DNA of 64,000 bases from a virus (Duplodnaviria; Caudoviricetes). Position 1 is the first letter of the stretch; the number at the start of each line of letters is the position of its first letter. A model generated the notes under the pieces. The model made no database searches and had not been told where the DNA came from. It worked only from the letters and a program-made list of their open reading frames with translations. Position numbers and translations under genes: made by a program. This document shows, in pieces, positions 54,565 to 54,982 of this stretch. Where the stretch lies: positions 192,001 through 256,000 of IMG/VR virus record IMGVR_UViG_3300027804_000038. The stretch is one strand, 5' to 3'.

Positions 54565-54703
54565 TGACGTAGTAAGAATAGAGTTACTTCGCATATTGGT
54601 TCGAATCCAATATTTGCCGCAATTTTGGCAGATTAGACAAATGGATAAGTCGACGGTCTCATAAACTGTTATAGAAAAACAACCTCTACTCGTTTTCTCG
54701 TCA
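54565..54703 (+). ncRNA. Y-like RNA 1 with permuted tRNA (T, acceptor, D, anticodon CAT)
   Basis: TAGT..GTTACTTC bulged stem; all four tRNA arms pair. Confidence 0.75.
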
Positions 54704-54710
54704 TAAAATA

Positions 54711-54844
54711 TTGATTGATAGTAATAGATAAGGTTACTTCGTAAAATAGCTCAATTGGATGAGCATTTGTATCAGGAACAAAAGGATACGGGTTCAACTC
54801 CCGTTTTTACAACCAAAAAAACCTTCCTAACTTTCTTCAATCAA
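54711..54844 (+). ncRNA. Y-like RNA 2 with linear tRNA module (CAG loop, CCA)
   Basis: TTGATTGA/TCAATCAA closing stem; cloverleaf 54741-54815. Confidence 0.72.
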
Positions 54845-54852
54845 ACTTATTA

Positions 54853-54982
54853 TCAGATAGTGAAGAGACAGTTACTTCAAATTTTTCTGGAACAAAAAAG
54901 GCTCGGGTTCGAATCCCGACTCCTCTTCGGGGGATGTGGTGTAGCGGTAGCACTAGATAACACTGTTTCTATTTTCTTCTGA
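54853..54982 (+). ncRNA. Y-like RNA 3 with permuted tRNA (anticodon GGA, T, acceptor, D)
   Basis: TCAGA/TCTGA stem; acceptor closed by cUUCGg. Confidence 0.75.

What the first reader, a model, noticed from the sequence alone, without database searches (positions are those of the whole stretch)
54565..54982. Three different tRNA topologies (two circular permutations and one linear) in adjacent scaffolds
RNA1 order is T arm (ATTGG-TTCGAAT-CCAAT), acceptor closed by an 8-nt loop (ATTTGCC/GGCAGAT), D arm, anticodon arm with CAT (54660-62): opened at the variable loop. RNA3 order is anticodon arm with GGA (54889-91), T arm, acceptor closed by cUUCGg, D arm: opened between D and anticodon arms. RNA2 is a normal cloverleaf with a CAG loop and CCA, opened at the acceptor ends. 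As I recall, described YrlA RNAs attach at the anticodon position and so lack an anticodon arm, whereas these keep it. Inference: non-chargeable anticodon decoys, or precursors processed through a circular intermediate as for algal permuted tRNAs.
Basis: partly seen in the sequence, partly recalled or inferred. Interest (0 to 1): 0.8.

Follow-up and report, generated by a model that had tools for sequence, protein, structure and literature searches.

The report
Phage Y RNAs carrying rearranged tRNAs
A giant freshwater phage encodes, beside its own Ro60 RNA-binding protein, four small RNAs that share one conserved stem "handle" but carry tRNA look-alikes wired in three different orders, which extends the known bacterial Y-RNA/tRNA-mimic system into a modular family.

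Summary
RNA1 (54565-54703) is a complete tRNA opened at the variable loop with a sealed acceptor. RNA2 (54711-54844) is a normal cloverleaf. RNA3 (54852-54983) is opened between the D and anticodon arms and sealed by cUUCGg. A fourth copy, RNA4 (55246-55331), carries only a Lys-type anticodon hairpin.

All four share a covarying terminal stem with invariant words: R-UAGUAA, GUUACUUCG and UUUCU. Rfam has no match for it. A Ro60 gene (TROVE plus vWA, 51194-52819) lies 1.7 kb upstream.

- Among phage contigs found through the RNA handle, 19 of 25 encode Ro60, against 0 of 24 controls over the cut-off.
- Among 79 loci found through the protein, 47 carry the handle on the Ro60 strand and none on the other.
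- No other neighbouring gene is shared.

The three topologies recur as conserved paralogues. Covariation supports their arms, the acceptors are sealed, and the anticodon triplets change on otherwise unchanged stems.

Best reading (about 0.7): a divergent family of phage Y RNAs (YrlA-like) bound by phage Ro60, not decoding tRNAs. Maturation through a circular intermediate is not supported. Ro60 binding and the function of the modules are untested.

The scan has noted similar Ro60-plus-handle arrays in other phage genomes.

The parts
51194..52819 (+). Phage Ro60/Rsr orthologue (541 aa; TROVE plus vWA)
   Evidence: Pfam TROVE 25.9 bits (cut-off 23), vWA_Ro60 24.4 bits, VWA_2 24.4 bits. phmmer against PDB matches Thermus phage phiLo Ro60 (9KOP/9L5Y) at E 9e-11 over residues 23-508, and human and Xenopus Ro60 at E 3e-4 to 6e-4. 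More than 2000 metagenomic homologues exist, some named '60 kDa SS-A/Ro ribonucleoprotein' by their source.
54565..54703 (+). RNA1: handle plus a circularly permuted complete tRNA opened at the variable loop. Order: T arm 54595-54611, sealed 7-bp acceptor 54612-54633, D arm 54636-54651, anticodon arm 54653-54669 (CAT)
   Evidence: The anticodon loop CUCAUAA is identical to that of the phage tRNA-Met at 32881.
54711..54844 (+). RNA2: handle holding an unpermuted cloverleaf (54740-54815; CAG loop, short variable loop, C1-A72 mismatch, ACCA)
   Evidence: ARAGORN. Rfam tRNA 59.9 bits. MFE fold. Orthologues keep the body but not the anticodon or the CCA.
54852..54983 (+). RNA3: handle plus a tRNA opened between the D and anticodon arms. 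Order: anticodon-like hairpin 54882-54898 (GGA), AGGC, T arm 54903-54919, 5-bp acceptor closed by UUCG (54921-54934), D arm 54937-54955
   Evidence: A weak YrlA match covers the T, acceptor and D part only (15.9 bits).
55246..55331 (+). RNA4: the same handle with only a 5-bp hairpin (55278-55294) whose loop CUUUUAA equals that of the phage tRNA-Lys
   Evidence: The 5' motif search finds exactly four copies in the 293,850-bp genome. Fold. Loop comparison.
54569..54591 (+). Conserved 5' handle words in RNA1: G-UAGUAA, 7 bases, GUUACUUCG. The same words lie at 54718-54741, 54857-54879 and 55252-55275
   Evidence: Alignment of the four copies. Family consensus from 99 RNAs, with a total motif length of 21-22 nt in 90 of 99.
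54692..54703 (+). Conserved 3' handle word UUUUCU followed by the P1 3' strand (RNA1). Equivalents lie near 54829-54844, 54972-54983 and 55316-55331
   Evidence: The base before UAGUAA and the base after UUCY covary: G-C 42, A-U 42, other 9.
54989..55422 (+). Ordinary tRNA genes interleaved with the Y-like RNAs: Leu-TAA 54989-55073, Thr 55082-55157, Glu 55168-55243, Tyr 55337-55422. Gaps to the handles are 4-5 nt
   Evidence: In relatives, 34 of 103 scaffolds abut a tRNA gene within 25 nt.
55714..55732 (+). Intrinsic-terminator-like hairpin plus T run, the likely end of the RNA operon
   Evidence: This is a consensus match only.

Best explanation
RNA1 to RNA4 are four paralogous phage Y RNAs. 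They belong to a divergent, uncatalogued relative of the bacterial and phage YrlA class.

Proposed parts and roles:
- Each RNA has a roughly 20-25-bp terminal stem made from its 5' and 3' ends: P1, a conserved bulged region (R-UAGUAA opposite UUUCU), and P2. The stem ends in the invariant junction word GUUACUUCG.
- This handle is the proposed binding site for the phage Ro60 ring protein encoded 1.7 kb upstream.
- The distal end carries an exchangeable tRNA-derived module. It attaches to the handle at the variable loop (RNA1), at the acceptor ends (RNA2), between the D and anticodon arms (RNA3), or is reduced to a bare anticodon hairpin (RNA4).
- The RNAs are made from a tRNA operon and are probably released by the tRNA-processing enzymes that cut the abutting tRNAs.
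- The modules are tRNA mimics rather than decoders. Their acceptors are sealed, and their anticodon triplets vary freely on conserved bodies. They would either tether Ro60 to tRNA-binding factors or present anticodon loops to them.

What is shown: the anatomy, the covariation, the genomic linkage to Ro60 and the recurrence of each topology.

What is inferred: Ro60 binding, the route of processing, and what the modules do.
For: Handle:
- Four of four copies of the 5' motif in the genome are followed by their own complementary 3' strand.
- In Ro60-positive contigs, cognate 5' and 3' strands meet a two-helix criterion in 42 of 51 cases, against 12 of 153 for non-cognate pairings.
- The closing pair covaries: G-C 42, A-U 42, other 9.

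Linkage to Ro60:
- The Ro60 gene is identified by Pfam and PDB matches.
- 19 of 25 handle-bearing IMG/VR records encode TROVE (16 over the cut-off; 5 of 5 complete genomes). Among control records that matched the pattern by chance, 0 of 24 were over the cut-off.
- In 79 loci fetched by Ro60 protein alone, 47 carry the strict motif on the Ro60 strand and 0 on the other strand.
- The nearest copy lies a median 812 nt from the gene.
- No other window ORF recurs in more than 4 of those loci.
- Paralogues within one phage share the same handle variant: 47 loci have only A or G at the variable position, 8 have only C, and 2 are mixed.

Topologies:
- Each recurs in many phages. Among 99 unique RNAs: 10 of the RNA1 type, 18 with a hairpin before T-AS-D, about 25 in linear order, and 17 cargo-free.
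- Orthologues of each window RNA exist.
- Covariation supports the arms.

Not decoders:
- Acceptors are sealed by tetraloops.
- Anticodon triplets are swapped on identical stems.

Precedent:
- YrlA RNAs next to Ro60 in bacteria and phages mimic tRNA (PMC4201824).
- Thermus phage phiLo Ro60 binds two phage Y-like RNAs and host PNPase (PMC12135203).

Expression hint:
- Exact RNA-library contigs cover 54749-54963 and 55260-55432.
- A relative's 1543-nt contig covers RNA1-3 and carries a compensatory change in the RNA1 acceptor.
Against: - No binding data exist, and the tools cannot model protein-RNA complexes.
- The handle lacks the GNCGAAN0-1G (CGAA) word held to mark Ro60 binding in YrlA and phiLo Yrl RNAs.
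- The Rfam YrlA model scores only 16 bits against a threshold of 69.
- The window has two ORFs and another tRNA-like RNA (52855-53003, which does hold GGCGAAAG) between Ro60 and the array, so that RNA could be the true partner.
- 32 of 79 Ro60 loci lack the strict motif. Many of these have UAGUCA variants, but the looser motif also gives false positives: 32 passes on the wrong strand against 149 on the Ro60 strand.
- The change from UAGUAA to UAGUCA has no compensatory change in UUUCU, so the fine structure of the handle is unsettled.
- The RNA-library contigs may be contaminating DNA.
Confidence: 0.7

Rival explanations
1. Ro60-independent decoys or sponges. The tRNA-like modules soak up host anticodon nucleases or tRNA-modifying enzymes. 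The stem is only a nuclease-resistant clamp and processing unit, and its position near Ro60 reflects common residence in the tRNA/RNA-repair region of tRNA-rich phages.
For: - Several loops are canonical anticodon loops identical to real tRNAs: CUCAUAA (Met), CUUUUAA (Lys), CUGUUAA (Asn).
- Triplets are hypervariable on fixed stems.
- Acceptors are sealed.
- Ro60 loci lie inside dense tRNA arrays: 984 tRNA calls in 78 loci. Co-location could therefore be indirect.
Against: - A simple clamp would not need invariant words at a fixed spacing.
- It would not need the same handle variant in all paralogues of a phage.
- Cargo-free handles are common: 17 of 99.
- The handle tracks Ro60, not tRNA arrays as such: 0 of 24 control phage contigs were over the TROVE cut-off. 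Ro60 is the only gene shared.
- This rival is compatible with Ro60 binding. It differs only in denying that binding.
Confidence: 0.12
2. Precursors of working tRNAs. RNA1 and RNA3 mature by joining the scaffold-side ends (circular intermediate or ligation) and opening the acceptor loop, as in algal permuted tRNA genes. RNA2 is simply released by RNase P and RNase Z.
For: - Re-permuted RNA1 and RNA3 are called as tRNAs by ARAGORN.
- RNA2 is a full cloverleaf with ACCA.
- Three RNA1-type relatives, and the relative seen in RNA contigs, have N-CCA in the acceptor loop.
- The genome encodes an Rnl2-type RNA ligase and a CCA-adding-type enzyme.
Against: - The part to be discarded is the most conserved part.
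- Cargo-free copies exist.
- Many orthologues seal the acceptor with UUCG or GNRA tetraloops and have no CCA.
- Anticodons differ between close orthologues: RNA2 has CAG where the 88.7%-identical orthologue has UCA, and the RNA1 type shows CAU, UAU, GCA and AAC.
- RNA2 has a Leu anticodon but no long variable arm.
- RtcB is absent, and no bulge-helix-bulge motif was seen.
- The phage already has ordinary tRNA-Met and tRNA-Ser genes.
Confidence: 0.06
3. Non-functional or purely structural elements: decaying tRNA-derived repeats, or RNase III-type punctuation of the tRNA operon, with no product of their own.
For: - They are tightly packed between tRNAs, with 4-10-nt gaps.
- The long, nearly continuous helices would suit a double-strand-specific RNase.
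Against: - Compensatory changes maintain every arm.
- Orthologues of each type are kept across phages whose Ro60 proteins are only 37-80% identical.
- The tRNA tertiary-contact bases are retained: U8, A14, G18-G19 and the T loop.
Confidence: 0.05

Closest known systems
YrlA (Y RNA-like A), Rfam RF02553; partner of bacterial and mycobacteriophage Ro60/Rsr (Chen et al. 2014, PMC4201824)
   Same: - Encoded near a Ro60 gene, often in more than one copy.
- The 5' and 3' ends form a long stem.
- The distal domain mimics tRNA with a T arm, a hairpin-closed acceptor stem and a D arm.
- RNA3 has the same linear order (hairpin, T, acceptor stem, D).
- A conserved YUAY word begins the region after the stem. 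Here it is UUAC, within GUUACUUCG.
   Different: - There is no GNCGAAN0-1G word. The conserved 5' word is R-UAGUAA.
- The Rfam model scores 16 bits against a threshold of 69.
- RNA1 attaches at the variable loop and keeps a canonical anticodon arm.
- RNA2 is an unpermuted cloverleaf.
- RNA4 has no tRNA body.
- In RNA3 the hairpin is followed by a 4-nt AGGC linker, like an anticodon arm plus a class I variable loop, rather than a variable arm.
- Arrays reach several copies per locus, set inside tRNA operons.
Thermus phage phiLo Ro60 with Yrl1 and Yrl2 (NAR 2025, PMC12135203; PDB 9KOP, 9L5Y)
   Same: - The protein is a phage-encoded Ro60 homologous to the window's over nearly its whole length (E 9e-11).
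- The Y-like RNAs are phage-encoded and lie beside the gene.
- That paper proposes the complex hijacks host PNPase.
   Different: - The phiLo Yrl RNAs were picked by a CGAA motif in an internal bulge and are not described as tRNA-like (no occurrence of 'tRNA-like' in the text).
- In this window the RNAs have another handle and tRNA cargo, and binding is untested.
Deinococcus radiodurans Yrn1
   Same: A Y RNA whose tRNA-like part is oriented differently from YrlA and includes a possible anticodon-like arm (PMC4201824). This is a precedent for more than one topology.
   Different: - Yrn1 has a 6-nt 'anticodon' loop, no clear D arm and a metazoan-like Ro-binding helix.
- It is a single lineage, not a set of paralogues on one handle.
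Circularly permuted tRNA genes of the red alga Cyanidioschyzon merolae and relatives
   Same: The 3' half lies upstream of the 5' half, and all cloverleaf elements are present. RNA1 and RNA3 are recognised as tRNAs once re-permuted.
   Different: - Those genes mature into working tRNAs through a circular intermediate (from my own knowledge).
- Here the flanking stem is conserved and linked to Ro60, acceptors are sealed by tetraloops, and anticodons are not conserved. No maturation machinery of that kind was found.

Membership tests
Y RNA / YrlA class (Ro60 partners) | Encoded next to a Ro60/Rsr (TROVE) gene | tested here: met
   Ro60 lies at 51194-52819, 1.7 kb upstream on the same strand. 19 of 25 handle-bearing records encode TROVE against 0 of 24 controls over the cut-off. 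47 of 79 Ro60 loci carry the motif on the Ro60 strand and 0 on the other.
Y RNA / YrlA class (Ro60 partners) | Long stem formed by the 5' and 3' ends, with a conserved bulged or internal-loop region | tested here: met
   MFE folds. Cognate against non-cognate pairing 42 of 51 against 12 of 153. Closing-pair covariation and fixed spacing. Helices 1-2.
Y RNA / YrlA class (Ro60 partners) | GNCGAAN0-1G (CGAA) word on the 5' strand | tested here: not met
   The conserved word is R-UAGUAA, with variants UAGCAA, UAGUGA and UAGUCA. There is no CGAA in the four handles.
Y RNA / YrlA class (Ro60 partners) | Match to Rfam RF02553 at the gathering score | tested here: not met
   Best scores are 15.9-16.3 bits against 69, and cover only the T, acceptor and D part. 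A relative gave no YrlA hit, nor did 8 further Ro60 loci.
Y RNA / YrlA class (Ro60 partners) | tRNA-like domain in the order (V hairpin), T arm, closed acceptor, D arm | tested here: inconclusive
   Met by RNA3 and its orthologues. Not met by RNA1 (T, acceptor, D, anticodon arm), RNA2 (linear cloverleaf) or RNA4 (hairpin only).
Y RNA / YrlA class (Ro60 partners) | Physical binding by Ro60 | not testable with these tools
   The complex predictor takes no RNA. EMSA or RIP is needed.
Permuted tRNA genes that mature into tRNAs | All cloverleaf parts present in permuted order | tested here: met
   ARAGORN calls tRNA-Met and tRNA-Ser after re-permutation. 35 of 41 relatives are called, against 0 of 41 in native order.
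Permuted tRNA genes that mature into tRNAs | Removable, unconserved flanks and acceptor linker; conserved anticodon identity | tested here: not met
   The flanks are the conserved handle. Orthologues have tetraloop-sealed acceptors. Anticodons vary among orthologues.
Permuted tRNA genes that mature into tRNAs | Circular or religated intermediates observed | not testable with these tools
   Only assembled contigs of RNA libraries were available, and no joints of that kind were listed. Raw-read or RT-PCR data are needed.
Canonical decoding tRNA (RNA2 as tRNA-Leu) | Cloverleaf above the Rfam tRNA threshold | tested here: met
   59.9 bits against 29. ARAGORN calls tRNA-Leu(CAG).
Canonical decoding tRNA (RNA2 as tRNA-Leu) | Anticodon and identity elements conserved among orthologues; long variable arm for bacterial tRNA-Leu | tested here: not met
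   Orthologues carry CAG, UCA, UAG, UUG, GUG, UGG or AGG on a conserved body with fixed G37-A38. The variable loop is 5 nt. CCA is encoded in only 3 of 13.

The most novel reading that the evidence does not exclude
The phage Ro60 particle is a display platform. One protein-binding handle carries interchangeable, fast-evolving anticodon stem-loops on sealed tRNA bodies in several geometries. The particle would capture or neutralise host tRNA-targeting defence nucleases, or route damaged phage tRNAs to the phage's own Rnl2 ligase and CCA enzyme. A sub-case: RNA1-type RNAs with N-CCA loops are cut by RNase P, giving two-piece, possibly chargeable tRNAs whose variable arm is the Ro60 handle.
Probability: 0.25. 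Interest if true: 0.85.

Novelty: new variant of a known kind. Interest (0 to 1): 0.68.

Why it matters
What the tRNA-like module of bacterial Y RNAs is for has been open since 2014. This family offers a natural experiment.

- The same Ro60-linked handle carries tRNA bodies attached at three different points, bare anticodon hairpins, or nothing.
- The anticodon triplets change while everything around them stays fixed.
- That pattern points to the anticodon face and the elbow of the tRNA shape as the functional surfaces. It makes decoy, tether and repair models directly testable.

It also matters in three other ways:

- It defines an RNA family that is absent from Rfam but widespread in freshwater tRNA-rich phages. 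333 IMG/VR contigs encode the cognate Ro60 relatives.
- It shows that ARAGORN-type tRNA calls inside such handles, such as 'tRNA-Leu(CAG)' here, should not be counted as decoding tRNAs.
- It gives designers of RNA scaffolds a natural set of circularly permuted tRNAs.

Tried and rejected
- Rfam, gathering and E-value scans: nothing matches the handle, and YrlA gives only a sub-threshold partial match.
- blastn against 50,697 GenBank phages: only ordinary tRNA matches, and no cultured phage carries the array.
- Raw duplex energy as a detector of the 3' strand: it did not separate true from chance matches. It was replaced by a two-helix criterion with cognate against non-cognate controls.
- Loosened 5' motif: it recovers UAGUCA-type variants but passes 32 times on the wrong strand, so the counts rest on the strict motif.
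- Pattern scan of 185,579 bacterial and archaeal genomes: the first 120 rows were all single, chance-like matches in coding-like sequence.
- Recent copy of one of the phage's own tRNAs: rejected. The best global alignments of the re-permuted RNA1, RNA2 and RNA3 to the 25 window tRNAs are weak.
- UAGUAA pairing with UUACU as a D-arm-like hairpin (the tRNA model aligns it so at 17.5 bits, E 0.24): this cannot coexist with the covarying P2, both words are invariant, and it is unresolved.
- AGUAA/UUUCU as a Watson-Crick helix: the A-to-C variant has no compensating change, so it stays a 'conserved bulged region'.
- Other conserved neighbour genes: none.
- RtcB: absent. The T4 Rnl1 family search is uninformative because its controls did not ring.
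- RNA-library contigs: they show presence and relatives only. Parts without cover and depth differences are not evidence.
No such Rfam family appeared here at E up to 10.
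Full report
**Setting.** The window is bases 192001-256000 of a 293,850-bp IMG/VR phage record rated complete. Near-identical DNA occurs in freshwater, lake and estuary metagenomes from 12 studies. The window holds a GOLLD RNA and about 25 tRNA genes.

- RNA1 (54565-54703) runs in this order: T arm; 7-bp acceptor closed by an 8-nt loop; U-A; D arm; then a canonical anticodon arm (ACGGU-CUCAUAA-ACUGU). 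Both ends continue into a long stem.
- RNA2 (54711-54844) holds a normal cloverleaf. ARAGORN calls it tRNA-Leu(CAG) and the Rfam tRNA model gives 59.9 bits.
- RNA3 (54852-54983) runs in this order: 5-bp hairpin with loop CUGGAAC; AGGC; T arm; 5-bp acceptor closed by UUCG; D arm.

Several checks agree with this reading.

- Unconstrained folding returns these arms and the terminal stems.
- ARAGORN sees no tRNA in RNA1 or RNA3 as written. After cutting the acceptor loop and joining the stem-side ends it calls tRNA-Met(CAT) and tRNA-Ser(GGA).
- The 4-nt AGGC between the RNA3 hairpin and its T arm is the size and sequence of a class I variable loop.

**A fourth copy and a common handle.** The word GUUACUUC occurs four times on the + strand within 700 bases. 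The composite motif UAGURA-N7-11-GUUACUUC occurs exactly four times in the whole genome. The fourth copy (55246-55331) carries only a hairpin whose loop CUUUUAA equals that of the phage tRNA-Lys.

Each copy has four handle parts:

- an outer helix P1;
- the word R-UAGUAA facing UUUCU;
- an inner helix P2;
- the junction word GUUACUUCG.

P1 and P2 differ in sequence between copies but stay complementary within each copy.

**Link to Ro60.** ORF 51194-52819 matches Pfam TROVE, the Ro60 vWA domain and VWA_2. It aligns over nearly its full length to the solved Ro60 of Thermus phage phiLo (E 9e-11), and also matches human and Xenopus Ro60.

Two pattern scans of IMG/VR plus a pairing filter gave about 55 true relatives of the handle among many chance hits. 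The association with Ro60 was then tested from both directions.

- From the RNA side: of 25 records holding the handle, 19 encode a TROVE ORF of 510-580 aa, including 5 of 5 complete genomes. Of 24 control records that had matched the 5' pattern by chance, none passed the cut-off.
- From the protein side: 333 IMG/VR contigs encode a relative of the protein. Among the best 79 loci, 47 carry the strict 5' motif on the Ro60 strand and none on the opposite strand.
- The nearest copy lies a median 812 nt from the gene.
- Loci without the strict motif often carry a UAGUCA variant. Canonical YrlA was not found in eight of them.
- No other protein of the window recurs in more than 4 of these loci.
- The loci sit inside dense tRNA arrays: 984 tRNA calls, all on the Ro60 strand.

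**The handle is a real structure.** Instances were defined only by the 5' motif in Ro60-positive records. Among them the downstream sequence supplies both helices in 42 of 51 cognate cases, against 12 of 153 non-cognate pairings. The base before UAGUAA and the base after UUCY covary: G-C 42, A-U 42, other 9. The motif length is 21-22 nt in 90 of 99 RNAs. Paralogues within one phage share the same handle variant.

**The topologies are conserved paralogues.** Among 99 unique RNAs from the Ro60-anchored loci, the cargo falls into recurrent classes:

| Class | Count |
|---|---|
| No cargo, or a bare hairpin | 17 |
| D-to-T linear order, with or without an own acceptor | about 25 |
| T, sealed acceptor, D | 12 |
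| The same with an anticodon-type hairpin before T (RNA3 type) | 18 |
| The same with an anticodon arm after D (RNA1 type) | 10 |

- Each window RNA has orthologues at 75-89% identity.
- Several phages keep the types side by side just downstream of Ro60.
- For 11 RNA1-type RNAs aligned by sequence alone, RNAalifold predicts handle, T arm, acceptor, D arm and anticodon arm. 96.8% of cells pair, against 79.9% in shuffles (0 of 500 reach it). 21 of 34 pairs have compensatory changes, and slid controls pair at 31-46%.
- Eight RNA3-type RNAs give 18 of 32 pairs with compensatory changes.

**Signs that they are mimics, not decoders.**

- Acceptors are sealed. RNA3 orthologues use UUCG, GAGA or GAAA tetraloops. 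Six RNA1-type RNAs use loops of 3-4 nt.
- Anticodon triplets change while the stems stay identical. Examples are CAU against GCA on UCUAA/UUAGA, CAU against UAU on AUCGU/ACGAU, and GGA, GAA or UGA on U5/A5.
- RNA2 orthologues keep the body and G37-A38 but carry seven different triplets, and CCA is encoded in only 3 of 13.
- RNA2 has a Leu anticodon but a 5-nt variable loop.

One caveat applies. Four RNA1-type RNAs have 8-10-nt acceptor loops. Three of these loops begin with G-CCA. The window's begins with G-CAA, and a relative seen in RNA contigs has U-CCA. M. smegmatis YrlA, which has a 7-bp acceptor, is cut there by RNase P and receives CCA in vivo (PMC4201824). RNA1 may be processed in the same way. 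The genome encodes a CCA-adding-type enzyme and an Rnl2-type ligase, but no RtcB.

**Expression.** Contigs from metatranscriptome libraries match 54749-54963 and 55260-55432 exactly. A 1543-nt contig from a relative spans RNA1-3. It shows G54616U with C54629A, a compensatory pair in the RNA1 acceptor. Contigs cannot prove transcription or define ends.

**Mechanism proposed.**

Shown:
- a conserved, covarying handle;
- tRNA-shaped cargo in at least three wirings;
- exclusive genomic coupling to a phage Ro60;
- placement inside tRNA operons.

Inferred:
- Ro60 binds the handle;
- the RNAs are released by tRNA-processing enzymes;
- the modules act as tRNA mimics that either tether Ro60 to tRNA-binding factors or present anticodon loops as bait.

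Precedent for tethering is the binding of host PNPase by phiLo Ro60-Yrl (PMC12135203) and RYPER (PMC4201824).

**Comparison with known systems.** YrlA RNAs (PMC4201824) share four features with this family: the Ro60 neighbourhood, the terminal stem, the order T, sealed acceptor, D, and a YUAY word after the stem. This family fails two defining tests, the CGAA word and the Rfam model. It adds attachment points that are not described for YrlA, and it forms multi-copy arrays. It works like a Y RNA and is best filed as a new variant of that kind.

Papers searched describe phage Ro60 and Y-like RNAs. I found none describing this handle, or permuted tRNAs mounted on it.

**Earlier notes of this scan.** The scan had already flagged the Ro60 gene and the four scaffolds in this genome, and similar Ro60-plus-handle arrays in other phage genomes. 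I found the Ro60 link before reading those notes, and I treat them as leads only.

Noticed in passing
window 52855-53003 (and 53004-53080): An expanded tRNA-like RNA lies 36 nt after the Ro60 stop codon. It has a 7-bp acceptor (ACTCAGG/CCTGAGT) followed by A-CCA, a canonical T arm and a large branched interior. It contains GGCGAAAG, which fits the YrlA word GNCGAAN0-1G. It could be another, or the primary, Ro60 partner.
   Followed up: partly
window 55423-55713: About 290 nt of non-coding sequence lie between tRNA-Tyr and the terminator-like hairpin at 55714-55732, inside the same RNA operon. It has no look-alike in the fetched loci and was not scanned against Rfam at the E-value threshold.
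   Followed up: partly
window 32442-32857: A full-length GOLLD RNA (316.8 bits) lies directly upstream of a tRNA-Met gene (32881-32953), in a freshwater jumbo phage.
   Followed up: no
own genome G000:C1:258389-258811 and 264731-265324 (2.4 and 8.7 kb beyond the window end): A CCA-adding/PolyA_pol-family enzyme and an Rnl2-family RNA ligase are encoded near the Ro60/Y-RNA/tRNA region. RtcB is absent. Together with Ro60 this looks like a tRNA repair kit.
   Followed up: partly
L251:9219-9365 against L297:6722-6869; L256:9089-9237 against L150:3989-4133: The anticodon triplet is replaced (CAU to GCA, CAU to UAU) while the 5-bp stem and the rest of the loop stay identical. RNA3 orthologues likewise keep a U5/A5 stem with GGA, GAA or UGA. 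This looks like diversification focused on the triplet.
   Followed up: partly
L150:1606-1729: The closest orthologue of RNA2 (88.7% identical) carries a UCA triplet, which reads UGA, in place of CAG.
   Followed up: no
L275, L285, L286 (Ro60 loci): All handle copies in these phages use UAGUCA instead of UAGUAA, while the facing UUUCU is unchanged. The variant is fixed across paralogues of one phage, as expected if they share one partner.
   Followed up: partly
L016:4526-4583 (- strand), and all handles: The Rfam tRNA model aligns UAGUAA..GUUAC as U8-A9 plus a D arm, and the following UUCG.. as an anticodon stem (17.5 bits, E 0.24). The 5' half of the handle may itself descend from a tRNA 5' half. 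This is unexplained.
   Followed up: no
between window 54703 and 54709, in a relative's RNA-library contig (run X18): The relative has 182 extra letters between RNA1 and RNA2, and its sequence upstream of RNA1 ends like another handle 3' strand. Copy number therefore varies between close relatives.
   Followed up: no
L245-L322 (78 Ro60 loci): ARAGORN tRNAs, all on the Ro60 strand. 27 of them lie inside a handle and would be miscounted as ordinary tRNA genes.
   Followed up: partly
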